NCBI GenBank assembly: GCA_036338695.1
Contig: JAYZBQ010000053.1
Location: 1-30,998 of the forward strand
Direction: 5' to 3'
DNA from: Myxococcota bacterium
Lineage (GTDB): Bacteria; Myxococcota; UBA4151
Length of the DNA: 30,998 nucleotides
Shown here: one piece after another, positions 1 to 20,510 of the stretch
How the letters are laid out: each line of letters starts with the position of its first letter
Numbering within the stretch: position 1 is the first letter of the stretch
The notes under the pieces: model-generated
Databases searched by the model: none
Seen by the model: only the letters and a program-made list of their open reading frames with translations
Told to the model about the DNA's origin: nothing
Program-made: the position numbers and the translations under genes

Positions 1-1
1 A

Positions 2-1274: not shown

Positions 1275-3260
1275 ATGTCTGAGCAGATCACGATTTATTT
1301 GCCCGATGGCGCCACAAAGACCCTCGAATCGGGTCAGACAGCGCATGCTGTCGCCGCTCAAATCTCCGAGGGTTTGGCGCGCCAAGCCGTGGGCGCTAAA
1401 GTCAACGGTGAGGTGTGCGATCTGCATCGACCGCTCGCCGACGGCGATCAGGTCCAGTTGTTGACCCCGCGCGACGCAGAGAGCCTGGAAATTCTAAGGC
1501 ACTCAACGGCGCATATCTTGGCAAGCGCGGTCAAGCGACTCTTTCCCAAGGCGCTGATCTCGATCGGTCCTGTCGTCGATGACGGCGTCAACGGCTTCTA
1601 CTACGACTTTGAGATGGAGCGCCCGTTTACGCCGGACGACCTGGTTGAGATCGAGGCGGAGATGAAGCGTGTCATCGGCGAGAAGTCGAGCTTTCAGCGC
1701 GTCGCCATCAGCCGAGAGGATGCTAAGCAGCGCTTCGAAGCGGAAGGGGAACCCTACAAGCTCGAGCTGCTCGACGCCGCCGACGGTGAGATTACGCTCT
1801 ACACGCACGGCGAGTTCAACGATCTGTGCCGAGGTCCGCACCTCCCGGACACCGGACGCGTAAAGTGCTTTAAGCTGCTGAGCCAGGCGGGCGCCTACTG
1901 GCGAGGTGACTCCAACAACACCATGCTCCAGCGCATCTACGGCACCGCCTTTTTCGACAAAAAAGAGCTCAAAAAGCACCTGCATCGCCTCGAAGAAGCG
2001 AAGAAGCGAGATCACCGGCGCCTTGGGCGTGAGCTTGGCCTGTTTACGGTCAGCGAGAAGGGCGACCTCTATCACGATGAGAACGAGGGGCGCTCGTACT
2101 TTGAAGAGATCGGTCAGGGGCTCGTGCTGTGGCTGCCGCGTGGCGCCCGGATCCGCACGATCTTGGAGGATTTCTGGCGGCGGACGCACCGCCAAGGTGG
2201 CTACGAGCCCGTGTATTCGCCGCATGTGGCGCACTCGGACCTGTGGCGGATCTCAGGGCACCTCGGGTTCTACAACGAGAGCATGTACAAGCCGATCGCG
2301 GTCGACGACGAGGAGTACCTCCTCAAGCCGATGAATTGCCCGTTTCATGTGATGATCTACAAGACGACGGCGCATTCCTATCGGGACCTGCCCGTTCGGC
2401 TCGCAGAGCTGGGGACGGTCTATCGGTACGAGCTCGCCGGCGCGCTGCACGGCTTGATGCGTGTCCGGGGGTTCACTCAGGACGACGCCCACATCATCTG
2501 CGCCGAGGAGAGCTTGGAGGACGAGCTCAACAAGGTCCTGCGGCTGGCGCTCGAGTACTTGCGAGCCTTTGGCTTTGAAGCCTTTGATATCATGCTCTCG
2601 ACCCGTCCGGAGAAGTTCGTCGGCGAGCCGAGCCTGTGGGCGCGCGCTGAGAAGGCGCTCGAGGGCTCCATCCGGGCGAGCGGGCTCGACTTTGCCGTAG
2701 ATGAAGGGGGCGGGGCCTTCTACGGTCCCAAGATCGACATCAAGATAAAGGATGCGATTGGGCGCACGTGGCAGTGCAGCACCATCCAGCTCGACTTCAA
2801 CCTGCCGAAGCGCTTTCAGATGACCTACACGAACCGAGACGGTGAGAAGGTCCCGCCGATCCTGATCCATCGCGCCATTATGGGCTCGCTCGAGCGCTTC
2901 TTTGGCATCCTGACGGAGCACTACGCCGGGGACTTCCCAGCCTGGCTCGCCCCGGAGCAGGCTCGAATCCTGACGATCTCGGAGCGCGCCGAGGGGGCGG
3001 CGAGTCAGCTGCTGGCTGCCTGCCAAGCGCGTGACCTGCGCGTGGAGGTCGATACGCGCAACGAGAGCCTCGGGAAAAAGATCCGCGACGCGCGCTTGAT
3101 GCGGGTGCCCTATCTCTTCGTACTCGGCGATCGTGAGGTCGATGAGGGGACCGCCGCGGTTCGGTCGCGTCAAGGCGAACAGTTTGGGACGTTGACCCAT
3201 GCTGACGCAGTCGATTGGTTGGCTGAAAAGAGCGTGCCGCCTTCACTTGACCTTTGTTAA
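1275..3260 (+). CDS. thrS: Threonine--tRNA ligase
   Basis: TGS domain, 'LRHSTAH', 'DLCRGPH', 'KPMNCPFH', 'GLMRVRGFTQDDAH', 'GAFYGPKID', 'IHRAIMGSLERF' and the anticodon-binding domain. SD GGAGG upstream. Confidence 0.99.
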   Translation: MSEQITIYLPDGATKTLESGQTAHAVAAQISEGLARQAVGAKVNGEVCDLHRPLADGDQVQLLTPRDAESLEILRHSTAHILASAVKRLFPKALISIGPVVDDGVNGFYYDFEMERPFTPDDLVEIEAEMKRVIGEKSSFQRVAISREDAKQRFEAEGEPYKLELLDAADGEITLYTHGEFNDLCRGPHLPDTGRVKCFKLLSQAGAYWRGDSNNTMLQRIYGTAFFDKKELKKHLHRLEEAKKRDHRRLGRELGLFTVSEKGDLYHDENEGRSYFEEIGQGLVLWLPRGARIRTILEDFWRRTHRQGGYEPVYSPHVAHSDLWRISGHLGFYNESMYKPIAVDDEEYLLKPMNCPFHVMIYKTTAHSYRDLPVRLAELGTVYRYELAGALHGLMRVRGFTQDDAHIICAEESLEDELNKVLRLALEYLRAFGFEAFDIMLSTRPEKFVGEPSLWARAEKALEGSIRASGLDFAVDEGGGAFYGPKIDIKIKDAIGRTWQCSTIQLDFNLPKRFQMTYTNRDGEKVPPILIHRAIMGSLERFFGILTEHYAGDFPAWLAPEQARILTISERAEGAASQLLAACQARDLRVEVDTRNESLGKKIRDARLMRVPYLFVLGDREVDEGTAAVRSRQGEQFGTLTHADAVDWLAEKSVPPSLDLC

Positions 3261-3307
3261 CTTAGCCCGCAGAGAAGTTGCCGTCCTAGGGACGAAAAGG
3301 AGAATGC

Positions 3308-4000
3308 TTGCGCCGTCGCCATTTTGCGCCAACGAAGCCTGAAAACGAACAACGCTTAAACGAAGCGATCACCGTACCCGAGGTGCGGCTTATCTCCCAC
3401 TTGGGCGAACAGGTTGGTGTCGTGCCGACTCGCCAGGCGCTCGCGATGGCTAAGGACGTCGGACTCGATCTCGTTGAGGTCAGCCCGAGCGCCAAGCCCC
3501 CGGTGTGCAAGCTCATGGATGCCGGCAAGCAGAAGTACCTGCGCAAGAAGCGTGAGTCGGAGCAGCGTAAGCGCCAGACCCGCATCACCGTCAAAGAGGT
3601 TAAGTTGCGCCCCAAGACGGACGAGCATGACTTCATGACCAAGGCGATGCGCGCCAAACGCTTCCTTGAGGCGGGCGACAAGGTGAAGATCACGATCATG
3701 TTCCGCGGGCGTGAGATGGCGCACCCGGAGATTGCGCGCGCCCACCTCGACCGGATGATCGAGGTGATGGGTGAGCTCGCCGTGGTCGAGCAGGTGGCAC
3801 GGATGGAGGGGCGCAACATGTTTGTGATCCTTGCGCCGAGCCGTGAGGTGCTCAAGGCTGTGGCGGCGGAGAAAGCGCAGAAGCTCAAAGCACGCGCCAA
3901 AGCCAAGAGCGAGCGCCGGGCAGCCGCCGGGGACAACACGGGCGAGGTTCCGGCCCTTGACGATGAGCCAGCTGAAGAAGCTGACGCTGAAGAGAGCTAG
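3308..4000 (+). CDS. infC: Translation initiation factor IF-3 with a ~50-aa C-terminal extension
   Basis: 'LNEAI...EVRLI', 'LDLVEVSPSAKPPVCKLMD', 'VKEVKLRP', 'GDKVKITIMFRGREMAH'. TTG start lies 5 nt after AGGAG (3298-3302). Follows thrS. Confidence 0.97.
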   Translation: MRRRHFAPTKPENEQRLNEAITVPEVRLISHLGEQVGVVPTRQALAMAKDVGLDLVEVSPSAKPPVCKLMDAGKQKYLRKKRESEQRKRQTRITVKEVKLRPKTDEHDFMTKAMRAKRFLEAGDKVKITIMFRGREMAHPEIARAHLDRMIEVMGELAVVEQVARMEGRNMFVILAPSREVLKAVAAEKAQKLKARAKAKSERRAAAGDNTGEVPALDDEPAEEADAEES

Positions 4001-4156
4001 CGCTCGCTGAGCGTGGTCGGCTCGACGGTTTTTATTGACCTGATCGACAGAGTGGATAAACGACGCCCGACGCCCGCTCGTGTGCGGGGGTGATGGGTCG
4101 GTTCCCCAAGTGTTCGACATCGTGTCGGACCACCGTCATCACGAAAAGGAGACATC

Positions 4157-4363
4157 ATGGCTAAAGGGCCAAAGATGAAGACCGTTTCTGGCGCAGCCAA
4201 ACGGTTCAAGAAAACCAAATCTGGAAAGATCCTGGCGAAGAGCGCGAACACCTCGCACTGCCTGACGCCATGGAGCTCCAAGCGTAAGCGGCAGAACCGT
4301 GGCACGCGGACGCTCGCCAAAGTGGATGTACCCGGCATCAGCCGGTGCATTCCTTACAAGTAG
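4157..4363 (+). CDS. rpmI: 50S ribosomal protein L35
   Basis: 'PKMKT.SGAAKRFKKTKSGKI', SD AAGGAG, canonical position after infC. Confidence 0.97.
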   Translation: MAKGPKMKTVSGAAKRFKKTKSGKILAKSANTSHCLTPWSSKRKRQNRGTRTLAKVDVPGISRCIPYK

Positions 4364-4375
4364 GGGGGCGGAACA

Positions 4376-4720
4376 ATGCGTGTCAAAGGTGGTTACGCTA
4401 CACGTCGTCGACGTAAGAAGATCTTTAACCGGGCCGAGGGCTATCGAGGCAAGCGCAAGAACGTCTGGCGCGTCGCCAAGCAGGCGGTCGACCGGGCTGG
4501 GCAGATGGCTTACAAGGGCCGCAAGCTCAAGAAGCGCGACTTTCGCCGTCTGTGGATCGTCCGCATCAACGCCGCAAGTCGTCTGCACGGGCTCAGCTAC
4601 AGCCGGTTCATGCACGGCTTGAAGAAGGCGGGCATCGAGCTGGATCGGCGCGTGCTTGCGCATCTCGCCGTCAGCGAGCCGGAGACCTTCGCATCGCTCG
4701 TCGAGCAAGCGAAAGGCTAA
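4376..4720 (+). CDS. rplT: 50S ribosomal protein L20
   Basis: '[14 protein letters not shown]', '[16 protein letters not shown]', '[23 protein letters not shown]'. Confidence 0.99.
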
Positions 4721-4802
4721 GGCGCCCTCGCACACTGTGCGCTGAGGTTCCCGCAGCGGCGGGCAGACCCGAAGGCTTGACCGAGCCATACGGAGCAACA
4801 TC

Positions 4803-5840
4803 TTGGAACAGGATCTCGTTGCGATCGAGAGCGACTGTTCGGCGGCCCTGAAGGGGGTCGCCGATCTGTCGTCGTTAAATGACCTGCGCGTTCAGTTCCT
4901 TGGGCGCCAAGGGCGTCTGACCGGCATCATGCGTGGGCTCGGTCAACTGGCGAAAGATGAGCGTAAAGCGGTCGGTCAGGCAGCGAACAAGGTGCGTGAT
5001 CGGCTCAACGCAGCTTTCGCCGAGGCGGAGACCTCGCTTAAGCGGCGAGCCCTCGACGCCGAGCTCGCCGAGCGGATCGACCTGACGCTCCCAGGGGACT
5101 TGGCGCAAGCTCGCGGTCGCTCGCATCCGCTGCGCCGCGTCGAGGCGGAGATCCTCGAGATCTTCAAGCGTCTCGGCTACACCGTAGCTTCGGGGCCGCA
5201 AGTCGAGGACGACTGGCACAACTTTGAAGCTCTGAACATGCCGCCGGACCACCCGGCTCGTGACATGCAGGATACATTCTACACGGTGGATGGTCGCCTG
5301 CTGAGGACGCACACGAGCCCGGTGCAGGTTCGTACCATGTTAGAGAACAAGCCGCCGCTTCGGATTGTTGTGCCCGGAGCGGTCTACCGCTGCGACGCCG
5401 ACGTCAGCCACAGCCCCATGTTCCATCAGGTCGAGGGGCTGGTCGTGGACCAGGGCATCACGATGGCGGATCTCAAAGGGACCTTGGCGCACTTTGCGCG
5501 TGAGATGTTCGGTGCGGACACCAAGATCCGCCTGCGGTCGAGCTTCTTCCCGTTCACCGAGCCCTCAGCAGAGGTGGATGTCACCTGCATCTTTTGCGGC
5601 GGTGAAGGCTGCCGGGTGTGTGGTGACTGCGGCTGGATCGAGATTTTGGGCTGCGGAATGGTGGACCCGGCGGTGTTCTCGGCGGTCGGCCTCGACCCCG
5701 AGACTACGCGGGGCTTCGCGTTCGGTATGGGGGTGGAACGCATTGCGATGCTGCGGCACCGAATCCCCGACATCCGGCTGCTCTTCGACTCTCGAATCGA
5801 TTTTCTCGAGCAGTTTGCTCAACGGAATCGGGAGGTCTAA
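4803..5840 (+). CDS. pheS: Phenylalanine--tRNA ligase alpha subunit
   Basis: 'HPARDMQDTFY', 'LRTHTSPVQ', 'HSPMFHQVEG', 'FFPFTEPSAE', 'GFAFGMGVER'. TTG start after GGAG. Confidence 0.99.
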   Translation: MEQDLVAIESDCSAALKGVADLSSLNDLRVQFLGRQGRLTGIMRGLGQLAKDERKAVGQAANKVRDRLNAAFAEAETSLKRRALDAELAERIDLTLPGDLAQARGRSHPLRRVEAEILEIFKRLGYTVASGPQVEDDWHNFEALNMPPDHPARDMQDTFYTVDGRLLRTHTSPVQVRTMLENKPPLRIVVPGAVYRCDADVSHSPMFHQVEGLVVDQGITMADLKGTLAHFAREMFGADTKIRLRSSFFPFTEPSAEVDVTCIFCGGEGCRVCGDCGWIEILGCGMVDPAVFSAVGLDPETTRGFAFGMGVERIAMLRHRIPDIRLLFDSRIDFLEQFAQRNREV

Positions 5841-5843
5841 CGC

Positions 5844-8216
5844 ATGCGATACATCAGCGATTGGGTCGCCGAGTGGGTCGAGGGGACGATGCCCTCCGCT
5901 CAAGAAGCCGAGGAGACGCTGACCGACCTTGGGCTTGAGGTGGAGCGCGTGCTGCAGGATCAAGACGTCGCAGACCGCGTGGTGATCGGTCAGGTCATTA
6001 CCAAGGCGCAGCATCCGAACGCCGATCGGCTCACCCTCTGTCAGGTCGATGTCGGTGAAGCCGAGCACGCGCAGATCGTCTGCGGCGCTCCCAACCATCA
6101 AGAAGGTGACCGCGTCGTCGTGGCGCGGCCTGGGTGTCGCCTGCCCGGAGATTTCAAGATCAAGCGCTCCAAGATTCGCGGTGAGGTCTCTGAGGGGATG
6201 ATGTGCTCCGAGACGGAGCTCGGCTTGGGCGAGTCCGACGAGGGGATTTGGATCCTGCCGAGCGATGCGCCGATCGGGCAGACGCTTGGGCAGTACGTGC
6301 GCGCAGGCGGACGCCATGTGTTTGAGCTGGGTCTCACGGCGAACCGCGGCGATGCGCTCAGCATGGTAGGGATTGCGCGCGAGCTCTGTCTGCGCAGTGA
6401 TCAGCGCAGCCCGCGTGCGCTCATCGAGGCCTGCGCTTCTCCAGGCGAACCAGCCGATGTGACGGTCGATCTCAGCGACGCCGGGTGTCCGTTTTACGCT
6501 GCGAAGCTGCTGCGGAACGTGCGCGTCGGAGCGTCTCCTTTATGGCTCCAGCAGCGGCTTCAAGCTGCCGGGGTGCGCGCCATCTCCAACGTCGTCGACA
6601 TCACCAACTATGTCCTCCTCACTTATGGGCAGCCGCTTCATGCGTTTGACTACGCCCTGCTCGGCGGCGGCGCGCGTCGTGTCCAGATGGGCGTTCGTTC
6701 GGCTGAGCCGGGTGAGACCCTGGCGACCCTCGATGGGGTCACGCGTAAGCTGGCGAAGGACGATCTGGTCGTGACCGAGTCGGGACGAGCCGTTGCGCTG
6801 GCTGGTGTGATGGGGGGCGCCGAGACAGAGGTCTCGAGCGAGACGACTGAGGTGCTGCTCGAGGCAGCATTCTTTGACCCGTCCCGGGTGCGCGTCACCG
6901 CTCGGCGGCATGCGCTTCACAGCGAGTCCAGCCATCGGTTTGAGCGGCACGTCGATCCTGCGCGCGTGCTGGCTGCGATGAACTTCGCGGCGCAGCTGAT
7001 GGTCGAACTGTGCGGCGCCGAGGCCGCCGACGGGTATGCCGAGGCCGGGTCGCTCCCGACCGCAAACGCACCGATTCGTTTTCGCTTCAGCGACGCCGAG
7101 GCCCTCATCGGGATGGCGTTCGACCCAGACGAGTCAGCGCAGCTGCTCGAGCGACTCGGCTGTCTTGTCGATCGCACGGCCACCGAACACTGGACGGTTC
7201 AGCCGCCGACCTGGCGCCGGGACCTCGAGCGCTCGGTGGATCTGATCGAAGAGCTGGTACGCGGCAAGGGTCTGGATGCAGTCCCTGAGCGACTGCCCGA
7301 CGCGCCGCCGCCGCCCGCTGGGATCACCACGGCTGATCCCACCGACGCGCTGGGGCGTAGCCTGAGCTTAGACCTGATCGGGCGTGGCTACTTCGAGTCG
7401 GTCAGCTTGGCGTTTATGAGCCCAACCTGGGCTGAGCGCTGCGCCCGGTCAGCCATCGAGTTGGACAACCCCTTGGGTGAAGAGACCCGCTACCTCAGGA
7501 CGGATCTACGTCCTGCGCTGGTCCAGGCCGTCAGCTTGAACCGACGACATGGGCGCGTCGAGGTCCGCCTCGTGGAGTGTGCTCGCCGATTCGAGCGTGA
7601 GGTCGAGCACAACACGATCGCTTGGACCGCGCCCTGGGGCGATAACCCGGTGGCGGGTTACGCCGCGTGTCGTGGTGAGCTCGAGGCGTTGCTCGGGGCG
7701 CGCGGGGTGGCGCAGTTGTGCTACGAACCCATGGGTGATGCAGATCGGCTGCTTCATCCGCGCAGCGCAGCCCGTGTCCTCGCGGAGGACCAAGTGATTG
7801 GGACGCTCGGCGAGGTCCACCCCGAGCTTCGCAACGAGCTCGAGCTGACGCCTGGTCAGTGGCTCGTTCAGCTGGATCTCAGCGCCACGCTCGAGGGCAC
7901 GGCGGCGCTGTCCGTCTATGAGCCGCTGCCGCGGTTTCCCGCTGTCCACAGGGACCTCGCCTTGGTCGTCGACGAAGCCGTCGGCGCCGGCCACCTGGCC
8001 GATCTGGCGCAGCGTGTGGACGCGAGCTTGGCGGTTCAGGCTCGAGTCTTTGACGTCTACCGCGGCAAAGGGCTCTCAGAGGGTAAAAAGTCAGTCGCTG
8101 TACGCTTCTCAATTCAGAGCGCAGAAGGTACGCTTAGCGAGAAGGAAGCGAACCGTTGGCTGAAGCGCTATCAGGAGTTAGCGCTTGATCAGTTTGGAGC
8201 TCAGCTTCGAGGCTGA
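5844..8216 (+). CDS. pheT: Phenylalanine--tRNA ligase beta subunit
   Basis: 'HPNADRL', 'IVCGAPN', 'SEGMMCS', 'TANRGDALS', 'NVVDITNY', 'GQPLHAFD', 'DLIEEL' and the FDX-ACB domain ('RFPAVHRDLA', 'FDVYRG'). Confidence 0.99.
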   Translation: MRYISDWVAEWVEGTMPSAQEAEETLTDLGLEVERVLQDQDVADRVVIGQVITKAQHPNADRLTLCQVDVGEAEHAQIVCGAPNHQEGDRVVVARPGCRLPGDFKIKRSKIRGEVSEGMMCSETELGLGESDEGIWILPSDAPIGQTLGQYVRAGGRHVFELGLTANRGDALSMVGIARELCLRSDQRSPRALIEACASPGEPADVTVDLSDAGCPFYAAKLLRNVRVGASPLWLQQRLQAAGVRAISNVVDITNYVLLTYGQPLHAFDYALLGGGARRVQMGVRSAEPGETLATLDGVTRKLAKDDLVVTESGRAVALAGVMGGAETEVSSETTEVLLEAAFFDPSRVRVTARRHALHSESSHRFERHVDPARVLAAMNFAAQLMVELCGAEAADGYAEAGSLPTANAPIRFRFSDAEALIGMAFDPDESAQLLERLGCLVDRTATEHWTVQPPTWRRDLERSVDLIEELVRGKGLDAVPERLPDAPPPPAGITTADPTDALGRSLSLDLIGRGYFESVSLAFMSPTWAERCARSAIELDNPLGEETRYLRTDLRPALVQAVSLNRRHGRVEVRLVECARRFEREVEHNTIAWTAPWGDNPVAGYAACRGELEALLGARGVAQLCYEPMGDADRLLHPRSAARVLAEDQVIGTLGEVHPELRNELELTPGQWLVQLDLSATLEGTAALSVYEPLPRFPAVHRDLALVVDEAVGAGHLADLAQRVDASLAVQARVFDVYRGKGLSEGKKSVAVRFSIQSAEGTLSEKEANRWLKRYQELALDQFGAQLRG

Positions 8217-8280
8217 AACAGCCGCCGAACGAGCGAGTAAGAGGCGAGCGGGGAGTTCCCGATCCGCCTTGGGAGATGGG

Positions 8281-8580
8281 ATGACGGAGCAACAGGTCGA
8301 GACGATGACCAAAGCCGATTTGATCGATGTGGTTCATCGTCGGACCGGTCTGAGTAAGCGCGAGGCGACGCGTTCAGTGGAGACGTTCATTGATTTGATC
8401 CGAGAGGCTCTGATCGATGGCCACCATGTAAAGCTCGCAAACTTTGGTACCTTCAAGCTCAGAGACAAGGCGCCGCGCATCGGCCGGAATCCGCGCTCAA
8501 GCGGGTCAGAGGTTGTGATCGCCGCCCGTCGTGTCGTAACGTTCAGGCCGAGCCCCAACCTACGATCGGCGATGAACTAG
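8281..8580 (+). CDS. ihfA: Integration host factor alpha subunit (IHF/HU family)
   Basis: 'MTKADLI', 'FGTF', 'GRNPR', 'ARRVVTFRPS'. Sits after pheT as in the conserved pheT-ihfA order. Start is ATG 8281 (GGAG upstream) or 8305, not the track's 8185, which overlaps pheT. Confidence 0.9.
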   Translation: MTEQQVETMTKADLIDVVHRRTGLSKREATRSVETFIDLIREALIDGHHVKLANFGTFKLRDKAPRIGRNPRSSGSEVVIAARRVVTFRPSPNLRSAMN

Positions 8581-8583
8581 CAC

Positions 8584-8934
8584 ATGACCCAGGACCACCG
8601 CCTCCCCGTCAATCAGCAGTTCTTTCGCATCGGCGAGGTTGCGACGCTGACAGAGACCTCGAGCTCGCAGTTGCGGTTTTGGGAGACGAAGTTCTCACAG
8701 CTTCGCCCCGTGCGCGGCGGCAGGGGGCAGCGTCGGTACAGTCGGGAGGACGTCGTCCTGATCTTCCAGATCAAAGAGATGACGGCGCAGGGGTTAGCGC
8801 TCAAGGCGATCAGTCGACGCCTTCAGACCGATCCCAACAGCGGCAACCGGCGCACGATCGATGTCGAGCGTCTGTATGAATTACGTAATCGGCTCGTGGC
8901 GCTGGAAGAGCGCCTGGGAAGCTTCTTGAAATAA
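8584..8934 (+). CDS. MerR-family HTH transcriptional regulator
   Basis: 'FFRIGEVA', 'LRFWETKFSQLRP', 'GQRRYSREDV'. This is the short MerR gene commonly found after ihfA. Confidence 0.9.
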   Translation: MTQDHRLPVNQQFFRIGEVATLTETSSSQLRFWETKFSQLRPVRGGRGQRRYSREDVVLIFQIKEMTAQGLALKAISRRLQTDPNSGNRRTIDVERLYELRNRLVALEERLGSFLK

Positions 8935-8966
8935 CGGTCCGCGTGACCGCCCTTAGAGGGCTATCT

Positions 8967-10289
8967 ATGAGTTCAGTGGTAATCGTCGGCGCCCAGTGGG
9001 GCGACGAAGGCAAGGGTAAGGTCGTCGACCGCTACGCAGCGCGCTCGAAGAACGTCGTCCGTTTTCAAGGTGGGAACAACGCCGGACATACGCTGGTGGT
9101 CGAGGGGGAAACGACCGTCCTCCACCTGATGCCGAGCGGGGTGCTGAACCGCGGGGTTCGCTCGGTGATTGGCAACGGCGTCGTGCTCGACCTCGAGGTG
9201 TTGGTGCGTGAAGTAAACGACTGCATCCGGCGTGGGTTGATCGACACGGCTCAAGGGACAAAGACCCTGGCGATTAGCGATCGAGCGCACCTGATCCTGC
9301 CGTATCTTGGGCGCCTCGATCGGGCGCGCGAATCCGTCGCTGGATCGGGCAAGATTGGTACGACGGGGCGGGGGATCGGACCGACCTATGAAGACAAGGT
9401 CGGGCGTCGTGGGTTGCGGGTCTGTGACCTGCTCGATCCGGATCGATTTCGGCAGCTCGCCCGGCAGCGGTTTGAGGCGGTTGATCGGTTGCTCAAGGAT
9501 CTCGGCGGTGAGCGCTACAGCGATGAAGAGATCGAGGCTGCCATCGAGCACCAGCTGTCGCTCGCTCGGGTCATTCAACCCTTCATCTGCGACACCTCCA
9601 AGCTGCTCTTCGAGGCGCGCCAGTCGGGTGAGAACATCCTTTTTGAGGGTGCCCAAGGGACGCTCCTTGACGTGGACCTAGGGACCTATCCTTACGTGAC
9701 CTCCTCCAACTGCATCGCAGGCGCTGTGTGCACCGGAGCCGGCGTCGGGCCGACGCAGATCGATGGGGTCGTGGGGATCTGTAAAGCGTACACCACCCGT
9801 GTGGGCGAGGGGCCGTTCCCGACAGAACTTCACGACGACCTCGGCGAGGCGCTGCGTGCTAAGGGGGGCGAGTTTGGGGCGACGACCGGTCGACCTCGGC
9901 GCTGTGGCTGGCTGGACCTCGTCGCGCTCAAGGCGTCCGTCCGGGCGAACGGGTTGACGGGCTTGGCGCTGACGAAGATGGACGTCCTTGACGGACTGGA
10001 CGAGCTCAAGGTCTGCACGGCGTATCGGCACGGTGACGCGCTGCTCGATGCGCCCCCCGCTCGCGCCGACATGATGGCGGACCTGGTGCCGGTCTATGAG
10101 ACCGTCGCCGGCTGGGGAGAGGAGACGGTGCGCGGTCACTCAAGCTTTGACCAGATGCCGGCAGCGGCTCAAGAGTACGTCCGCCTGATCGAGGCGTCTA
10201 TCGGCGTCCCCGTCTGTCTCGTGAGCGTCGGTCCCGATCGAGAAGAGACGATGGAGATCTCCGATCCTTTCGGTGGCGGGAGCGCATGA
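8967..10289 (+). CDS. purA: Adenylosuccinate synthetase
   Basis: 'GAQWGDEGKGK', 'RFQGGNNAGHT', 'IGTTGRGIGP', 'FEGAQG', 'GTYPYVTSS', 'EFGATTGRPRRCGWLD'. Likely start is ATG 8967 after AGAGGG. Confidence 0.99.
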   Translation: MSSVVIVGAQWGDEGKGKVVDRYAARSKNVVRFQGGNNAGHTLVVEGETTVLHLMPSGVLNRGVRSVIGNGVVLDLEVLVREVNDCIRRGLIDTAQGTKTLAISDRAHLILPYLGRLDRARESVAGSGKIGTTGRGIGPTYEDKVGRRGLRVCDLLDPDRFRQLARQRFEAVDRLLKDLGGERYSDEEIEAAIEHQLSLARVIQPFICDTSKLLFEARQSGENILFEGAQGTLLDVDLGTYPYVTSSNCIAGAVCTGAGVGPTQIDGVVGICKAYTTRVGEGPFPTELHDDLGEALRAKGGEFGATTGRPRRCGWLDLVALKASVRANGLTGLALTKMDVLDGLDELKVCTAYRHGDALLDAPPARADMMADLVPVYETVAGWGEETVRGHSSFDQMPAAAQEYVRLIEASIGVPVCLVSVGPDREETMEISDPFGGGSA

Positions 10290-11293
10290 GCGGCGGCTTA
10301 CGCTGTCGCTCCTGCGGTCGAGCTTTTCAGCCTCGCTTCGCCTATCAGACGGCTGCAGGTCCCGGTGGGGAAGAGGGCCCCTGGTGCAGCCCAAACTGTG
10401 TCCCTGCTTCGCAAGCGCAGCGAACCTGCTCTGTGTGCGGTACCCGCTTTGAGCCCGAGTTTGTGTGGCAGCTTGATGGGCAGCGGGCGTTTTGCTCGAA
10501 GCCCTGCGCCGGAATCGACGAGCGCGCAGGGTTATGCCTCGCCGTCATGAATCAAAAGGGCGGGACCGGGAAGACGACCACGGCGATCCACGTAGCCGTC
10601 GGGCTCGCAGCGGCGGGGGAGCGGGTCCTTTTGATCGACGCCGACGCCCAAGGGAATGTCGGCACCAGCTTGGACGCGTCGAGCCCTGGAAACCTTTTTC
10701 ACCTCATGATCGAGGGGCGCACCCTCGGTGATTTGATCGAGTCGGTACGCCCCAACCTTGACCTTTTGGCAGCAGACGCTGGACTGGCGGCGATCGACTT
10801 GCGCCTGCCGACCATGAAGGGGCGCTCGCGTATCCTGCGTCAGGCGCTGGAAGCGGGGCGTAACCGCTACGATCGAATTATCATCGATTGCGGCCCGTCG
10901 CTGAGCCTCTTGAACCAGAACGCGCTGTGCGCATCGGACGGGATCCTCGTGCCGGTGTCTTGCGATTATTTGAGCTTAGTGGGTGTTCGCCAGGTTCTCA
11001 GGACCTTGCGTAATGTCGGCAAGCTGCTCGACCACGAGCTTGAGCTCGTTGGACTGGTTCCGACCATGTACGACGGGCGGCGGCGCATCGACCGGCAGGT
11101 TCATCAGGCGCTGGTCGATCGTTTCGGTGAGCGCGTGGCACCTGCGATACGGCAGACGACTCGTATCACCGAGGCGCCGTCACGCGCCAAGACCATCTTT
11201 GAGGATGCGCCCACCTCGCGTGGCGCAGAAGACTATCGCCAGCTTGTTCGCTGGGTGAGCAAGCGGTCTTGGAGGGCGCACGATGTCGGATGA
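10286..11293 (+). CDS. ParA/Soj-family ATPase with two N-terminal 4-Cys zinc-finger (TRASH/FCS-like) modules
   Basis: Deviant Walker A 'NQKGGTGKTT', 'LLIDADAQGN', Walker B 'IIIDCGPS', 'TMYDGR' and 'RITEAPS'. N-terminus carries CRSC...WCSPNC and CSVC...FCSKPC. ATGA overlap with the purA stop. Confidence 0.92.
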   Translation: MSGGLRCRSCGRAFQPRFAYQTAAGPGGEEGPWCSPNCVPASQAQRTCSVCGTRFEPEFVWQLDGQRAFCSKPCAGIDERAGLCLAVMNQKGGTGKTTTAIHVAVGLAAAGERVLLIDADAQGNVGTSLDASSPGNLFHLMIEGRTLGDLIESVRPNLDLLAADAGLAAIDLRLPTMKGRSRILRQALEAGRNRYDRIIIDCGPSLSLLNQNALCASDGILVPVSCDYLSLVGVRQVLRTLRNVGKLLDHELELVGLVPTMYDGRRRIDRQVHQALVDRFGERVAPAIRQTTRITEAPSRAKTIFEDAPTSRGAEDYRQLVRWVSKRSWRAHDVG

Positions 11294-11558
11294 CCCTAAG
11301 CTGTCGCGCAACCCGCTCGCGATGCCCGAGGATCTGCTCTACGGAGCGCGGGACCTCGAGCCGTTACCTGCGAAGAAGGTGAAGCCTGCGCGCGATGTGG
11401 TGCTCTCAACCTTTAGCCTCTACCCAGAGGATCTCGAGCACCTCAATGAGTTGGTCACGGCGTTGAAGAAGTCCGGGCAGCGTGGGGTCAACAAGAGCCG
11501 CCTGGTGCGTCAGGCGCTCGCTCAGTTCAAGGCGTCGGACTACAAGCCGCCGCGGTGA
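11283..11558 (+). CDS. Small putative ribbon-helix-helix protein, candidate ParA partner
   Basis: GGAGG SD at 11271-11275 and an 11-nt overlap with parA. 'STFSLYPEDLEHLNELV...VNKSRLVRQAL' fits a strand-helix-helix pattern. Confidence 0.7.
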   Translation: MSDDPKLSRNPLAMPEDLLYGARDLEPLPAKKVKPARDVVLSTFSLYPEDLEHLNELVTALKKSGQRGVNKSRLVRQALAQFKASDYKPPR

Positions 11559-11559
11559 G

Positions 11560-12792
11560 TCAGCGCCAGACCGCAGGGACGAGCGCCGCCGGGACGGTCG
11601 CGGTCACGCGGTACAGCCCACCCAATAGGACCTGATCCCGGTTCAAGAGCTGTGGCCTGGGGTCGCTGATGAGCGGATGCGTCGCTCGCAACGCGCGGGT
11701 CGACCGCGCCGGCAGAATCGCGATCTTGCAGCCGAGCTCTCCCGCGTGGACGCTCGCTTGAGCGGGGCTTGAGGGGGGCGAGCCCACGTTGCCGATGCAG
11801 TCGCCTGCCTGCAGTGTCGCAACTTCCGTCTCGAACGACTCGGAGCGGCGCACGATGCGCACGGTCCCGTGGACGATCAGCCCAAGAAAGGGCTCCTTCG
11901 CCCCTTGTCCAATGATCTCTTCGCTTGGGTCCGCCATGCGCAGGCGAAATCCCCCCAAGAGCTTCGCCTTCTGGCTATGCTGTAGATCCCGGTACCCGGG
12001 GAGCGTACTGAGCAGATTGAGCAGCAGACGGTCGCGACAGAACCGAGCAAGAACCTCTGAAAATCGGGGGTCCTGGGCGCACTCGTAGTCAAGCACCTCG
12101 CTCGGGATCTCAAGCGCTGCGAGGTGACTGAGGCTCCGGACGAGCGCCGAGCGAGGTCGCCCGGTGAGGTAGGAGAAGACCCCGATGACGCCGCCGGCGC
12201 CGATCCGAGCGGTCTCGACCTCGGTACCATCGGGTTGGGTCTCGAGGACTTGCGCGACCCCTTCGGTGATGAGGAAGATCGAGTTGCCCAATCCGCCCGG
12301 CGCAAAGAGCGCGTCGCCCGTCTCAAGTTGGTGGAATCGACTCCCGGACACCAGCCGCTCGAACGCCCCTTCGGGGAAGAGCGACAAGACGGCGAGCTGA
12401 TCCCTCGGGATCTCGATCCGTGTCGTCGACTCGCCCTCGCCGGGGTTCGCGGGGATCGCTGCGTCCTCGCCGGTCGCCGCAGCCAGCAAGAGGAGGCTCC
12501 CCCCTTGCTCCTCGGCGCGAGCGCCTTTGGCGGCGTAGATGCGGCTGATCAACCGCAAGATGCGACGCTCGCCAGGAAAGCTCTCGAGCGCCTCTTTCGC
12601 CGTCTGAGCAGCCGCCAGCGCGTCCTTGTTCTCTTGATGCGCTCGGATCGCCTCACAGTAAGCCTCGACCGCCTCGGCTCGGCGCCCCTCTTGAGCTGCC
12701 TGGCGCGCCATGCTCTGCGCCTGACGGGCTGCTTGAGCGTTGGCGGAGCGCCGCCGGCTGATCAACGATGTCAGGGTCTTAATGAGAGTCAC
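11560..12792 (-). CDS. Tandem cyclic-nucleotide-binding domain protein with a helical (TPR-like) N-terminus
   Basis: 'LFAPGGLGNSIFLITEGVAQV...IGAGGVIG...RPRSALV' and a second 'IIGQG...LGLIVHGTVRI...LQAGDCIG' domain. The N-terminus is Ala-rich and helical. Confidence 0.75.
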   Translation of the reverse strand: MTLIKTLTSLISRRRSANAQAARQAQSMARQAAQEGRRAEAVEAYCEAIRAHQENKDALAAAQTAKEALESFPGERRILRLISRIYAAKGARAEEQGGSLLLLAAATGEDAAIPANPGEGESTTRIEIPRDQLAVLSLFPEGAFERLVSGSRFHQLETGDALFAPGGLGNSIFLITEGVAQVLETQPDGTEVETARIGAGGVIGVFSYLTGRPRSALVRSLSHLAALEIPSEVLDYECAQDPRFSEVLARFCRDRLLLNLLSTLPGYRDLQHSQKAKLLGGFRLRMADPSEEIIGQGAKEPFLGLIVHGTVRIVRRSESFETEVATLQAGDCIGNVGSPPSSPAQASVHAGELGCKIAILPARSTRALRATHPLISDPRPQLLNRDQVLLGGLYRVTATVPAALVPAVWR

Positions 12793-12887
12793 TGCGTCCC
12801 GCCGCTCCTAGCACACCACCCTAGGGTGAGATCAGCGATGGGTTCAAATGAAGTTCACGTCATTACGACGAGTGACCGAGTCGGCGC

Positions 12888-14393
12888 CTAGAAACGAATG
12901 CGCATATCAAAGTTGATGCTGTAGAACGTGCTGTTGATCAACTTGAACTGGTTACCGACGCCGTCAAAGGCGTAGCGGAAGTAGGGGCTGTACTCGTAGG
13001 CTTTGTTGATGGTTCCAGCCTCTTCGCCGGCGATCAGCGCACGGTCTCCTGGGTCGCCATCGTCGGCGCGCCCCGTCTTCTCGTCGGTCGTAAAGTGGCT
13101 GGTCTCCTGACCGATCGCACCGAGCAGGCGCGCCTCGAGCATCCCCGCTGTCGCAAAGCGCAGCCCGGCGTTCAAGCCGACGCGCGCGAACTGCTCTTCG
13201 TACGTGGGGCGGCCGAGCAGATCACTCATGCGGTTGAACTCACGGCCCTCCGAGACGTACTCTCCTCGGACCAAGACGTCGGTCTTGAGGTAGCTTTTCG
13301 ACCCCGCTCCGCCGCTCTTCCACAGGCTCGTCGACACGCCGAACTCCGTGCCGCCGATATGGCGTGGCTTGATCCCTGCGCCAAAGTCGATGGTCCGCGC
13401 CGGGTCGCCGGCGAAGTCCTGGCGCTTGTTGCGGCAGCGCGCAAACCATTGCTCGGTCGTCACGGTGCAGTCGCTCGCCAGGTGGTCCGGAGACAGGTCG
13501 AAGTCAGCCTGTTCTTGGTCGGTCGCCCGACCGTAGTTGGTGTCGTAGAGGTTCTGGCTGTCATAAGCCTGGGTCGCCGGGATCCCGAAGCTGTAGTCCA
13601 CCGCAAAATACGGGCGGAACTTTCCGACCCAGCGAGCCAAGACCGTGCGGGCGGTGATCCGATAGAGGCCTTCACTCACACCGCCGGGTGAGCCGGACGT
13701 GGCGTTGACTCCGACCGTGCCGCCTCGCAGCCCCTCTAAGTCCGGACCTGCATACACCAGCTCTCGCTCATCACCGGTCGGGAGCTGCGCGTTGAACTGC
13801 CAGTGCCAGGTCGGCTTGGACGGGTCGGCGATCTCGCTGAGCATGTCGAAGGCGAAGCCGACGTTTAGATCGCCGACGCTCGAGCGTCGGTAGGTCGTGT
13901 TGGCGCTGGAGTAGCCTTCTTGGAACGAGACGGCTGGGGTGCGCGTGCTGCGCGGGACACCTTTGTTGTAGACGAGTGACTGGTCTTGCGTCGGCTTGGC
14001 TTGACCATCGTAGATCAGCCCGGCCGTTCGGTAGGGTGCCGTGGCGGTCCAGGTCTGCTCCCAGTTGAGCACGATGGGGAGGTCGACGTAGAGCATCAGC
14101 CGACTGAACAAGCTGATTTTGAGCCGGGGCTCGATCACCTGCATGGAGCTCGTGTAGTTCGCCACCTCGGTGACGTTGTAGATCCCATCTGCGCCCTTGC
14201 CCTGTTGACCGAGCGTGGCGTTCTCGCCGCGCGTGTAAAACCCAAACTCAATGCGGCTGTCGAAGGGGTCGTCGCCGTCGCGTGGGTCGAGGTTCGTCGT
14301 GCGCTCGAGCGGCGCAACGAAGGTCGGCGCAGCGAGCGCCGGGCCCACGCTCAGCGTGAGCGTGACGACGGTGAGAGCAAGACCCTTTAGCAT
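12888..14393 (-). CDS. Secreted, probable outer-membrane beta-barrel protein (501 aa)
   Basis: Start ATG at 14393 after AGGAAAGGA; the track's 14573 start overlaps the upstream gene. Signal peptide MLKGLALTVVTLTLSVGPALA, amphipathic aromatic strands and a C-terminal 'INFDMRIRF' ending in Phe. Confidence 0.7.
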   Translation of the reverse strand: MLKGLALTVVTLTLSVGPALAAPTFVAPLERTTNLDPRDGDDPFDSRIEFGFYTRGENATLGQQGKGADGIYNVTEVANYTSSMQVIEPRLKISLFSRLMLYVDLPIVLNWEQTWTATAPYRTAGLIYDGQAKPTQDQSLVYNKGVPRSTRTPAVSFQEGYSSANTTYRRSSVGDLNVGFAFDMLSEIADPSKPTWHWQFNAQLPTGDERELVYAGPDLEGLRGGTVGVNATSGSPGGVSEGLYRITARTVLARWVGKFRPYFAVDYSFGIPATQAYDSQNLYDTNYGRATDQEQADFDLSPDHLASDCTVTTEQWFARCRNKRQDFAGDPARTIDFGAGIKPRHIGGTEFGVSTSLWKSGGAGSKSYLKTDVLVRGEYVSEGREFNRMSDLLGRPTYEEQFARVGLNAGLRFATAGMLEARLLGAIGQETSHFTTDEKTGRADDGDPGDRALIAGEEAGTINKAYEYSPYFRYAFDGVGNQFKLINSTFYSINFDMRIRF

Positions 14394-18020: not shown

Positions 18021-20510
18021 ATGTTTCGAGTTGCGTTCGCTGTTGTTGTTTTGACCTCGATCAGCTGCGGCCCTGGCGCCCCAGCGCAGAGTCAGGCGCG
18101 CTGCGGGGATGGGCGCGTATCGGGGGGTGAAGGTTGCGATGACGGCAACTCGGTCGATACGGACGCGTGCACCAACGCGTGTCAGCCTGCGGTCTGCGGC
18201 GACGGCGTGGTCCGCACGGATTTGGCGGCTGGTGTTGTGGGCGCAGAAGCCTGTGATGATGGCAACGCGTTCGACGGTGACGGGTGCCTGAGTCGCTGCG
18301 TCGTGGCTCGCTGCGGTGATGGCGTCCTGCGGACCGACATCCCCGAGGGAGAAGAGGGCTACGAAGCCTGTGATGATGGCAACGAGGAGTCGGACGATGA
18401 CTGCACCAACGGTTGCGTCTTGCAGGTCTGCGGCGACGGGATCGTCCAGCCCGAGCGGGGTGAGCTGTGTGATGACGGCAACGAAGAGGACACAGACGCT
18501 TGCACGAACCGTTGTCGCCCTGCCGGCTGCGGCGACGGCTCGGTGTGGGAGGGCAATGAGGAATGTGACGACGGCAACCGAGACAACTTCGACGCCTGCC
18601 TCAACACCTGCACCGCGGCGCGGTGCGGAGATGGTGCGCCCAGAGTAGACTTGAGCGAGGGGGAAGAGGGGTACGAGGAGTGCGATGACGGCAACAGCGA
18701 CTCCGACGACGGCTGCCTGACGACCTGTGTCGCTGCGCGCTGCGGTGACGGTATCTACCGGCGCGACCTCAACCCCTCGCATCCCGACTATGAGGAGTGC
18801 GATGACGGCAACGACTCAGACGATGATGAGTGCTCGAGCGAGTGCGTCTCGCTCGGATGTGGAAACGGGCGCCTGAACGAAGGTGAAGAGTGTGACGACG
18901 GCAACATCGAAGACGCTGACGCCTGCCGCAATGACTGCGTCCGCGCCGTCTGCGGGGATGGTATCACGCGGCGAGACCTGCAAAACGGGGAAGAGGGTTA
19001 TGAGGGCTGCGATGACGGCAACCTCGACAACCTCGACGGCTGCACCAACGCCTGCCGCGTGATGATCTGTGGCGATGGGGTCACGCAAGAAGAGATCGGC
19101 GAGACCTGCGACGATGGGAATCAGGTCGACGAAGACGCCTGCCCGAACACATGCCGTACCGCTGTTTGCGGTGACGGTGTCCGCCGGGAAGACCTGCAGC
19201 CAGAGGAGGAGGGCTACGAGGCCTGTGATGATGGGAATCAAGCGCAGGATGATGGGTGCCTCAACGACTGCGTCGCTGCGGCTTGCGGCGATGGCTTTCA
19301 TCGCCAGGATCTGCAGCCCGGCGCAGAGGGCTACGAGGCCTGCGACGACGGCAACGAGGTCGACACCGACGCCTGCCTGAGCAACTGCGCAGCGGCTGCC
19401 TGTGGAGATGGTGCGTTGCGAGCGGGCGTTGAAGCCTGCGATGACGGAAACCGCGTCGACACCGACACCTGCCGGAACAACTGCGAGGTGGCGCGCTGCG
19501 GCGACGGCGTGGTGAACGTCGGCTTTGAGGCCTGTGATGACGGAAACCAGGTTCAAGACGATGGCTGCAACAACCTGTGCCGCCTCGGCACCTGCGGCAA
19601 CGGGCGTGTCGATCAGAATGAGGAGTGCGACGACGGCAACGACGTCGACGAGGACGCGTGCCGCAACGCGTGCGTGGCGGCTCGCTGCGGGGACACCGTG
19701 GTGCGAACCGACCTTCAAGCCGGCGCGCCGGGCTATGAAGCTTGCGACGATGGCAACCAGGTCGACGACGACGTCTGCAACAACCAGTGCCGATTCAACG
19801 ACTGCGAGCCGACCGTGCGTACGTTTGAGCACACGGGCGCGGTCCAGAGCTTTGTCGTGCCCGAATGTGCGCGCAGCCTGCGCCTTGAGGTTTGGGGCGC
19901 TCAAGGTGGGCCGACTGAGATCTGCGGTGGGCGCACCGACAACGACGGTGGCGCTGGCGGTTACGCGCGCGGTGACCTGGCGGTCGCACCTGGCGATACG
20001 CTGTACATTTTCGTGGGGGGTCAGGGCGTTCGCGGTGGCCGTGGTGGATTTAACGGCGGCGGCGACGGCGGGCGCTATGGCGCGGGCGGTGGCGGCGGCA
20101 GCGACGTGCGCGCAGGCGGTCAAGGTCTTGGCGATCGCGTCCTCGTCGCAGGCGGCGGCGGTGGGGGGAACACCGGCTGCCCGAATCATGGCACCGGCGG
20201 CGCAGGTGGTGGAGAGAACGGAGCTAATGGGATTGTCAACGCCGGGAACCGGCAGGCGCCAACGGGCGGGACGCAAAATGCAGGCGGGCGCGCCGGAACG
20301 AGCGGCGTCGCCGGTCGATTAGGCGTCGGCGGCGGGCGCGGGCAGTATCATGACGCCGGCGGCGGCGGCGGTTACTACGGCGGCGGCGGCGGCTATGCGG
20401 TCGGCGGCGGTGGCGGGAGTGGCTACATCGGCGGCGTCCGCAACGGCAGCATGAGCTCGGGACAACGTCAGGGGCATGGGCGCGTCGTCATCACCTTCGG
20501 GAGGCAGTGA
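18021..20510 (+). CDS. DUF4215 / Myxococcus cysteine-rich repeat surface (lipo)protein with a C-terminal glycine-rich (ALK/LTK GRD-like) domain
   Basis: Signal peptide ending 'TSISC'. 16 'CG(D/N)..ExCDDGN..D.C' repeats counted. C-terminus 'TFEHTGAVQSFVVP...LEVWGAQGG...YIFVGGQG...GFNGGG...GGGGSGY'. Confidence 0.9.
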   Translation: MFRVAFAVVVLTSISCGPGAPAQSQARCGDGRVSGGEGCDDGNSVDTDACTNACQPAVCGDGVVRTDLAAGVVGAEACDDGNAFDGDGCLSRCVVARCGDGVLRTDIPEGEEGYEACDDGNEESDDDCTNGCVLQVCGDGIVQPERGELCDDGNEEDTDACTNRCRPAGCGDGSVWEGNEECDDGNRDNFDACLNTCTAARCGDGAPRVDLSEGEEGYEECDDGNSDSDDGCLTTCVAARCGDGIYRRDLNPSHPDYEECDDGNDSDDDECSSECVSLGCGNGRLNEGEECDDGNIEDADACRNDCVRAVCGDGITRRDLQNGEEGYEGCDDGNLDNLDGCTNACRVMICGDGVTQEEIGETCDDGNQVDEDACPNTCRTAVCGDGVRREDLQPEEEGYEACDDGNQAQDDGCLNDCVAAACGDGFHRQDLQPGAEGYEACDDGNEVDTDACLSNCAAAACGDGALRAGVEACDDGNRVDTDTCRNNCEVARCGDGVVNVGFEACDDGNQVQDDGCNNLCRLGTCGNGRVDQNEECDDGNDVDEDACRNACVAARCGDTVVRTDLQAGAPGYEACDDGNQVDDDVCNNQCRFNDCEPTVRTFEHTGAVQSFVVPECARSLRLEVWGAQGGPTEICGGRTDNDGGAGGYARGDLAVAPGDTLYIFVGGQGVRGGRGGFNGGGDGGRYGAGGGGGSDVRAGGQGLGDRVLVAGGGGGGNTGCPNHGTGGAGGGENGANGIVNAGNRQAPTGGTQNAGGRAGTSGVAGRLGVGGGRGQYHDAGGGGGYYGGGGGYAVGGGGGSGYIGGVRNGSMSSGQRQGHGRVVITFGRQ

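What the first reader, a model, noticed from the sequence alone, without database searches (positions are those of the whole stretch)
10286..11558. Orphan ParA with tandem zinc-finger N-terminus plus an RHH partner: candidate undescribed positioning system
Seen: a Soj-type ATPase with an intact deviant Walker A (KGGTGKTT), Walker B, and Arg residues at the positions used for nucleoid binding in Soj (TMYDGR, TRITEAPS). It is preceded by two internally repeated modules, CxxC-GxxFxPxFxxQ-x(5-12)-(W/F)CSxxC, which resemble TRASH/FCS zinc fingers. It overlaps a 91-aa gene with a short N-terminal 'KLSRNPL' peptide, a flexible linker and a C-terminal strand-helix-helix. There is no parB, and I saw no parS or iteron array. 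The pair is coupled to the housekeeping gene purA. Known: ParA/MinD ATPases position cargos through a small adjacent partner whose N-terminal basic peptide stimulates hydrolysis (ParG, McdB, PomX/Y), and the characterised ParA N-terminal additions I know of are HTH-type. Inference: a chromosomal cargo-positioning or DNA-organising module in which the Cys fingers provide metal/redox sensing or cargo binding.
Basis: partly seen in the sequence, partly recalled or inferred. Interest (0 to 1): 0.72.

Follow-up and report, generated by a model that had tools for sequence, protein, structure and literature searches.

The report
Zinc-finger ParA second chromosome-partition system
This is a conserved two-gene unit of non-Myxococcus myxobacteria, a ParA ATPase with two zinc fingers and a small predicted DNA-binding partner; in relatives a repeated DNA site lies on the operon's promoter and at scattered spots that seem to favour the terminus half of the chromosome, so it likely positions chromosome regions that the ordinary origin-segregation system does not, although that site is not found in this genome.

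Summary
Observation confirmed. Window 10286-11293 encodes an intact Soj-like ParA with two treble-clef (TRASH/MYM) zinc fingers; 11283-11558 encodes a predicted ribbon-helix-helix (RHH) protein with a flexible tail. The pair is adjacent in 72 of 77 assessable relatives, single-copy and separate from the genome's own parABS. It was not found in the PomZ-rich families sampled. The purA link is local only (1 of 80 loci). New here: relatives with the partner carry arrays of a 10-bp unit, CTT(C/A)NN(T/G)AAG, repeated every 12 bp. They lie on the operon's promoter and at a few dispersed sites, often inside genes, and fall in the terminus half in two complete chromosomes. Best reading: a chromosomal ParF/ParG-like (type Ib) partition system acting on non-origin DNA (0.5). 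Against: this genome and one complete Sorangium genome have the pair but no arrays, 16 sampled genomes keep the ATPase without partner, binding is untested, and the fingers' role is unknown. The scan noted the pair before in another genome (e1-2083494); the summary shown mentions no DNA site. No paper found. New variant; interest 0.72.

The parts
10286..11293 (+). Zinc-finger ParA ATPase gene, 335 aa
   Evidence: GGAG 7 nt before the ATG
10304..10399 (+). Finger 1 (C7-C10...C34-C38), treble-clef TRASH/MYM type, with conserved F-x-x-[RK]-F-x-[YF]-Q
10427..10507 (+). Finger 2 (C48-C51...C70-C74), same pattern, Q62 invariant
10529..11269 (+). Soj/ParA ATPase domain (about res 82-328)
   Evidence: Foldseek to Soj/ParA, rmsd 1.4-1.6 A, 35-42% identity; VIA Z 36.9, rmsd 1.5, 249 aligned to 8ray
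10556..10579 (+). Deviant Walker A KGGTGKTT with signature Lys91
   Evidence: invariant in 109 of 109
11078..11080 (+). Arg265 in TMYDGR, at the Soj DNA-binding position (role recalled)
   Evidence: R in 108 of 109; identical motif in 1wcv
11162..11164 (+). Arg293 in RITEAPS, second basic position of the DNA-binding face (role recalled)
   Evidence: R or K in 106 of 109
11283..11558 (+). Partner gene, 91 aa, ParG-like layout
   Evidence: GGAGG upstream
11301..11342 (+). Partner N-terminal box (res 7-20, LSRNPLAMPEDLLY), predicted ATPase contact
   Evidence: conserved hydrophobic/acidic pattern; the interface itself was not shown
11400..11543 (+). Predicted ribbon-helix-helix domain (res 40-87); strand LSTFSL differs from the family's usual VICISM/L
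   Evidence: VIA: TraM-N Z 5.8 (rmsd 2.2, 48 aligned); CdbA, PutA52 and ParG Z 4.2; RHH_1 below cut-off in 43 of 77; strand counts
8943..10289 (+). purA, upstream in the pheS-pheT-ihfA-merR-purA run; local context only

Best explanation
The two genes likely form a second, plasmid-style (type Ib, ParF/ParG-like) partition system fixed on the chromosome: the predicted RHH partner would bind short 12-bp-period repeat arrays, repress its own operon and, through its flexible tail, stimulate the nucleoid-bound zinc-finger ParA to pull or hold those chromosome sites, probably in the terminus half that the origin ParABS system does not reach. Shown: both genes, the intact ATPase, their pairing, the separate canonical parABS, and the arrays in relatives. 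Predicted: the RHH fold and the partner-ATPase contact. Inferred: that the RHH binds the arrays, autorepression, ATPase stimulation, DNA movement and the terminus bias. The fingers are probably structural zinc modules that add a DNA or protein contact. In the window's own lineage the DNA-reading strand has changed, the promoter is lost behind purA and the arrays are not found, so it reads another site or is a relaxed form.
For: Pairing: 72 of 77 assessable loci; 38 of 56 ATPase-bearing genomes in a 301-genome phylum sample; 40 of 41 in a 101-genome sample of the class that holds Sorangium; always one copy. The fold matches are nearly all RHH proteins, ParG over 69 residues including the tail. 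Complex score 0.44 vs best control 0.01, weak support: that mark was reached by 116 of 157 solved and 2 of 215 mismatched pairs, at 0.60 or under by only 18 solved and both mismatches; runs agree in at least 28% of contacts, partner pLDDT at least 65. The unit lies upstream of the ATPase in 35 of 71 loci with partner (1.2 expected from shuffles; pattern derived from these loci) and in 1 of 20 assessable partnerless loci. It starts 19-23 bp after a -35-like TTG in 18 of 42 loci. Class sample, non-promoter sites: 54 in 265.5 Mb with the system vs 18 in 356.7 Mb without, control pattern 0.31 vs 0.32 per Mb; second pattern 47 vs 30. 56 of 61 genomes of one family have a site. The unsearched second unit is matched in 12 of 20 sites from that family and 0 of 14 from partnerless genomes (p 2e-4). 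In G408, 6 of 7 non-promoter sites lie near the point opposite dnaA while 22 look-alike matches are spread evenly (p 0.012). In G481, 6 of 6 lie in the skew-estimated terminus half.
Against: The window's genome has no array: 0 matches to either strict pattern, and the matrix scan gives 17 hits above 14 bits vs 25 in the reversed genome. Sorangium G301 has the pair with the usual strand but no asymmetric site in 11.7 Mb. 36 of 71 partner loci lack the promoter unit. 16 assessable phylum-sample genomes and 4 more (G302-G305) keep the ATPase without a partner, including the sister genus of this genome. Raw counts of the 15-bp pattern do not separate partner-bearing from partnerless genomes (42 sites in 40 genomes vs 21 in 18). 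The terminus bias is in-sample for G408, rests on noisy skew for G481 (dnaA not located), was unreadable for G480, and is not significant in eight draft assemblies (about 4 of 23 vs 23 of 62 on the dnaA contig, p 0.07). 59 of 101 class-sample genomes lack the system, so it is not essential. Roughly half of the sites looked at are intergenic, which also fits a small regulon. Related genomes are not independent.
Confidence: 0.5

Rival explanations
1. The RHH is only a repressor of the operon and a few other genes, or a minor nucleoid protein like CdbA. The ATPase positions a protein cargo that it grips with the zinc fingers.
For: The ATPase persists without partner in about 20 genomes. The fingers carry invariant non-Cys residues (F14, Q62), as a binding surface would. 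Several arrays lie just upstream of genes such as gltA and murC. CdbA sites are also part intergenic, part genic (PMC7156744, passages).
Against: The partner keeps a conserved N-terminal box that a plain repressor would not need, and the complex prediction passes weakly. Many arrays sit deep inside genes (pyrD, lon, valS, bamA, argC, trmFO). No cargo gene travels with the pair.
Confidence: 0.25
2. The arrays are read by the ATPase's own zinc fingers, which replace the operator-binding HTH of type Ia ParA; the RHH is a co-factor.
For: Type Ia ParA proteins autorepress through an N-terminal DNA-binding domain (PMC9178275, passages). Two fingers per subunit would match two half-sites per unit. 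Raw 15-bp counts relative to control follow the ATPase (42/80 with partner, 21/50 partnerless, 6/56 no system).
Against: Matches in partnerless genomes lack the second unit (0 of 14) and look like chance. One-finger lineages keep the promoter unit. The window has normal fingers but a changed RHH strand and no arrays.
Confidence: 0.1
3. It places the division site in myxobacteria that lack PomXYZ.
For: Near-complementary distribution: a PomZ-like gene in 197 of 301 genomes but in only 4 of 56 with this ATPase and 1 of 40 with the partner; 0 of 101 in the class sample. The family groups next to PomZ with weak support, 89 SH-aLRT on a quick tree. PomXYZ co-occur in Cystobacterineae (PMC7993993, passage).
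Against: The pattern mostly follows lineage. 59 of 101 class-sample genomes have neither system, and MinC is independent of it (11 of 42 vs 8 of 59). No FtsZ-recruiting gene is linked.
Confidence: 0.1
4. The fingers are metal or redox sensors, or the unit is tied to purine synthesis.
For: purA lies upstream here, purH upstream in 22 loci and guaB downstream in 4. TRASH domains were named for metal trafficking (recalled).
Against: The neighbours change by lineage and include a type II topoisomerase pair and two-component genes. Each finger has four Cys, as in structural zinc sites; its nearest relatives are L24e, MYM fingers and multi-repeat treble-clef proteins. 24 of 96 loci have one finger and 3 have none by pattern.
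Confidence: 0.05

Closest known systems
Type Ib plasmid partition systems: TP228 ParF/ParG/parH, pSM19035 delta/omega, pCXC100 ParA/ParB
   Same: Walker-type ATPase followed by a small RHH protein with a flexible N-terminal tail; repeats at the operon's promoter (in relatives).
   Different: Chromosomal and single-copy across several classes; ATPase is Soj-like with zinc fingers (20% identity to ParF and delta); sites are short arrays dispersed over megabases, not one centromere beside the genes.
Sulfolobus SegAB
   Same: Chromosomal ParA-type ATPase plus RHH site-specific partner, with palindromic sites upstream of the operon (PMC9178275, passages).
   Different: Bacterial; coexists with a full parABS; 19-22% identity to SegA; zinc fingers; dispersed sites.
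Chromosomal Soj/ParA of ParABS
   Same: Closest ATPase (35-42% identity, rmsd 1.4-1.6 A); same catalytic and DNA-binding residues.
   Different: No ParB or parS at the locus; separate branch from the genome's own ParA; N-terminal fingers.
E. coli MatP/matS (details recalled)
   Same: RHH-containing protein on dispersed palindromic sites, many within genes, in the terminus region.
   Different: MatP has no ParA motor and other domains; no homology test was run; terminus confinement here is looser and not proven.
Myxococcus PomXYZ and CdbA
   Same: Extra nucleoid-bound ParA in myxobacteria (PomZ); RHH nucleoid protein binding spaced repeats (CdbA, Z 4.2).
   Different: PomZ has two large activators and is on another branch; CdbA has no ATPase partner or long N-terminal tail.

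Membership tests
ParA/Soj ATPase (nucleoid-binding) | Deviant Walker A with signature Lys, catalytic Asp, Walker B | tested here: met
   K91, K96, D120, D201 invariant in 109 of 109
ParA/Soj ATPase (nucleoid-binding) | Basic DNA-binding residues on the C-terminal face, no membrane-targeting helix | tested here: met
   R265 in 108 of 109, R/K293 in 106 of 109; C-terminal tails vary from 0 to 64 residues with no common helix by inspection
ParA/Soj ATPase (nucleoid-binding) | ATP-dependent dimerisation and DNA binding | not testable with these tools
   needs biochemistry
Chromosomal ParABS | Adjacent ParB CTPase and parS | tested here: not met
   the genome's only ParB-family match and only parS match are on C48 with another ParA
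Type Ib partition system (ParF/ParG-like) | Small downstream RHH protein with flexible N-terminal tail | tested here: met
   model pLDDT 62-71 for res 1-40, 90-97 for res 41-90; RHH fold matches, top Z 5.8; monomer model only, Z values modest
Type Ib partition system (ParF/ParG-like) | Repeat sites at the operon promoter and a centromere | tested here: inconclusive
   arrays in many relatives; none in the window's genome or in G301; binding not tested
Type Ib partition system (ParF/ParG-like) | Short ATPase without an N-terminal domain | tested here: not met
   two fingers in 67 and one in 24 of 96 loci
Type Ib partition system (ParF/ParG-like) | Partner tail stimulates the ATPase through a basic residue | tested here: inconclusive
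   K/R near the box in 51 of 63, not invariant; complex weak support 0.44 vs 0.01; stimulation needs an assay
Type Ia ParA | N-terminal HTH that binds the operator | tested here: not met
   the N-terminus is two Cys4 fingers
TRASH / zf-FCS treble-clef finger | CxxC...[FY]CSxxC with four ligands | tested here: met
   zf-FCS in 71 of 109 homologues, best E 2.6e-10; L24e E 4e-4; the window's own protein does not hit zf-FCS
TRASH / zf-FCS treble-clef finger | Fold match of the isolated domain; bound metal | not tested
   the domain was not modelled alone; whole-protein fold searches covered only res 78-332
PomXYZ | PomZ-clade ATPase with PomX and PomY | tested here: not met
   separate branch; no PomZ-like match in this genome at E 1e-70
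MatP/matS-like terminus organiser | Sites confined to the terminus region | tested here: inconclusive
   6 of 7 in G408, 6 of 6 in G481 by skew, p 0.07 in drafts, none in this genome

The most novel reading that the evidence does not exclude
Many myxobacteria run two ParA partition machines on one chromosome: ParABS for the origin, and this zinc-finger ParA with an RHH protein on dispersed 12-bp-period arrays for the terminus half, in effect a motor-driven counterpart of MatP/matS.
Probability: 0.28. Interest if true: 0.9.

Novelty: new variant of a known kind. Interest (0 to 1): 0.72.

Why it matters
How the terminus half of large bacterial chromosomes is organised and segregated outside the enterobacteria is largely open (own knowledge). 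A ParA motor with a site-specific partner on non-origin sites would be a new arrangement, and zinc fingers would be a new kind of ParA N-terminal domain. It was missed because it was not found in the Myxococcus-type families sampled, where the genetics has been done. The candidate 22-bp site makes the question directly testable by binding assay and ChIP-seq in cultured Polyangia.

Tried and rejected
purA or purine link: not conserved. A start downstream of the fingers: rejected by Cys conservation. Replacement of PomXYZ or Min: no three-way exclusivity. A profile search of the partner against PDB sequences gave nothing significant, best E 0.11; the window's partner has no NCBIfam hit. Atlas search on res 1-80 gave one low lead, 0.76, zf-FCS on 28% of members. 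A new site in the window's genome: a tandem-palindrome scan found only DUF4215-type coding repeats and a hexamer run; no sigma-70-like promoter in window 1-13000; no telling conserved non-coding block against three family members. Single-unit counts are uninformative (63 in G408, 42 in this genome). The looser tandem patterns did not exceed their backwards controls as totals; only the asymmetric subset carries signal. GC skew could not place the terminus in G480. Expression: no RNA holder listed. Partner and finger profiles are unrelated. The tree is the quick version; the careful search did not finish. A Fisher table held a wrong cell; the value cited is. Literature searches listed no paper on this family; one search returned mostly irrelevant hits, and subscription journals and supplements were not seen.
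Full report
Observation. The window holds a 335-aa ORF at 10286-11293 and a 91-aa ORF at 11283-11558, both on the plus strand at the end of a thrS-infC-rplT-pheST-ihfA-merR-purA run. The ATPase matches AAA_31 at E 3e-47 and Thermus Soj at E 4e-46. Its model (pLDDT 91.7) fits Soj/ParA at 1.4-1.6 A. In 109 aligned homologues (of 120 listed; short, fingerless and a few long ones were left out) the Walker residues and seven of eight finger cysteines are invariant. The genome is 3.36 Mb, 64% GC, and has its own parA, parB and one perfect parS on contig C48, so this ATPase is an orphan.

The fingers. zf-FCS matches 71 of 109 homologues. A profile of the two fingers finds archaeal L24e in the PDB. 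Among the top 150 of 1.84 billion cluster representatives, 53 carry the ATPase part; by inspection the rest are fragments of this family or unrelated proteins with many treble-clef repeats. So the finger pair is specific to this ATPase family. Of 96 loci, 67 have two fingers, 24 have one and 5 none by pattern, two of those at contig edges. The domain was not modelled alone.

The partner. Its model has a low-confidence N-terminal 40 residues and a confident two-helix core. The best structural matches are almost all RHH proteins: TraM-N Z 5.8, then CdbA, PutA52 and ParG at 4.2. These Z values are modest, as expected for a small monomer. Y47, L54, K62, G65, S72, R76 and A78 are invariant in 77 sequences. 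The strand is VICIS-like in most relatives but LSTFS here. A 2:2 complex with ATP scored 0.44 against 0.01 for the best of three controls, which the tool rates as weak support; no interface was given, and likeness to solved ParA-partner complexes may contribute.

Distribution. The partner follows the ATPase in 72 of 80 named loci; three of the other eight end at the ATPase stop. Named carriers include Polyangiaceae, Kofleriaceae, Nannocystaceae and Bradymonadaceae. In 301 phylum genomes, 56 have the ATPase, 40 the partner and 38 both; 0 of 125 genomes of family f10 and 0 of 43 of f14 have either. I take f10 to be the Myxococcus family because all 125 carry a PomZ-like gene; that gene was identified by its length (recalled) and its neighbours. 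G180, flagged unpublished, is one of those 125. Eighteen genomes have the ATPase alone, two of them at contig ends. In 101 genomes of the class holding Sorangium, 41 have the ATPase, 41 the partner, 40 both and 59 neither. On a quick tree of 53 ATPase domains the family is one side of a branch (99 SH-aLRT), apart from canonical ParA and PomZ, with the window's lineage on a long stem. Neighbouring genes change by lineage; purA is adjacent in 1 of 80 loci.

A candidate DNA site. Where the operon has its own promoter, a 10-bp unit CTT(C/A)NN(T/G)AA(G/C) lies in the -10 to start region, often as a tandem pair with a 12-bp period and the centre AAG-YR-CTT. It occurs in 35 of 71 loci with partner and 4 of 23 without, three of those four being contig-end loci. 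The pattern was derived from these loci, so this count is in-sample. Elsewhere in the genomes, the pattern AAGYRCTTCNNTAAS gives 0.20 non-promoter sites per Mb in class-sample genomes with the partner and 0.05 without, with equal control rates (counts typed in from the tables). The pattern STTCNNTAAGYRCTT gives 0.18 vs 0.08 and is found in 56 of 61 and 12 of 18 genomes of two families (presence of the pair was not checked in each). For 14 of the 21 matches in partnerless genomes, none does. Sixteen sites inside genes use rare codons at 46 of 128 positions against 14% background, which the motif partly forces. Arrays of up to three or four units occur.

Results against the site. In the phylum sample, raw counts do not separate partner-bearing from partnerless genomes (42 in 40 vs 21 in 18; 6 in 22 without the system, 80 genomes). 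Sorangium G301 has none of the asymmetric sites. The window's genome has none, the three matches in its genus lack the second unit, and de novo scans found no substitute. The site is therefore a family feature that this copy does not show.

Position on the chromosome. In the closed 9.07-Mb chromosome G408, dnaA is at 2.65 Mb and sampled skew turns near 8 Mb (17 of 20 samples usable). Six of seven non-promoter asymmetric sites lie at 6.72-8.27 Mb, while 22 symmetric look-alikes are spread evenly; the pattern was refined on this genome. In the 10.75-Mb contig of G481, six sites lie at 1.88-4.33 Mb and skew puts the terminus at about 3.9-4.8 Mb; dnaA was not located. G480 shares what look like the same sites and its skew was ambiguous, so it is not counted. 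In eight draft assemblies about 4 of 23 asymmetric vs 23 of 62 look-alike matches lie on the dnaA contig (hand tally, p 0.07; one site then treated as a promoter was later shown not to be). The three re-scored matches nearest dnaA score 17.0-17.9 bits against 20.6-29.9 for most others. The bias is suggestive, not established.

Mechanism. ParA dimers bind DNA non-specifically and are released when a partner's N-terminal peptide stimulates hydrolysis (10.1101/2025.12.01.691545 and PMC11407121, passages). Plasmid systems use RHH proteins on repeat sites (PMC7022226, passage), and SegAB does so on an archaeal chromosome (PMC9178275, passages). The layout here fits that plan: RHH dimers would bind the arrays one helical turn apart, repress the operon, and present tails to the nucleoid-bound ATPase, which would then move or hold those loci. 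Every one of these steps is inferred. The main rival is that the RHH only regulates and the fingers grip a protein cargo.

Novelty. No Pfam or NCBIfam family covers the pair above cut-off beyond the generic ATPase domains. Eight literature searches listed no description (listings and abstract starts seen; passages read in PMC9178275, PMC7993993, PMC7156744, PMC11407121, PMC7022226 and 10.1101/2025.12.01.691545; no supplements). The system works like a type Ib partition module but fails membership on the ATPase's extra domain and the dispersed chromosomal sites: a new variant of a known kind, interest 0.72.

Noticed in passing
L007:1636-5897 (also L008, L009, L013, L080): A type II topoisomerase pair in A-then-B order (possibly topoisomerase IV) lies directly upstream of the zinc-finger ParA in one family, which would fit a late-segregation role.
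   Followed up: partly
L133, L197, L200, L205, L209: The array is kept inside pyrD across a genus with rare codons while the encoded residues vary (REALNE, REVLNE, RKVLNE), a sign of selection on the DNA.
   Followed up: partly
G360, G365: These genomes have several pattern matches but no detected system; low GC or incomplete assembly may explain it.
   Followed up: no
L050, L053, L054, L065, L070, L071 upstream of the ATPase: A second conserved promoter word, ATGACAT/ATGTCAT, in Polyangiaceae-type loci; Sorangium loci have a different inverted repeat there.
   Followed up: no
L098 (G031:C5:6440722-6441783): Partnerless family member with an altered Walker A region on a long branch, in a genome that also has pomXYZ-like genes; may be decaying.
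   Followed up: partly
L096, L097: Members of the ATPase family with neither fingers nor partner.
   Followed up: partly
G000:C76:65543-72211: The genome carries a flagellar cluster (genes resembling flhA, flhF, flhG, fliA, flgFG), unusual for well-known myxobacteria.
   Followed up: no
window 22270-27527: A XerC/D-type recombinase gene followed by a TadE/TadG-like pilin cluster.
   Followed up: no
window 18021-22198: Two large proteins with many DUF4215 cysteine-rich repeats, one ending in a glycine-rich domain.
   Followed up: no
G000:C12:50723-50920: A run of a 6-bp repeat near a contig end, with its complement nearby.
   Followed up: no
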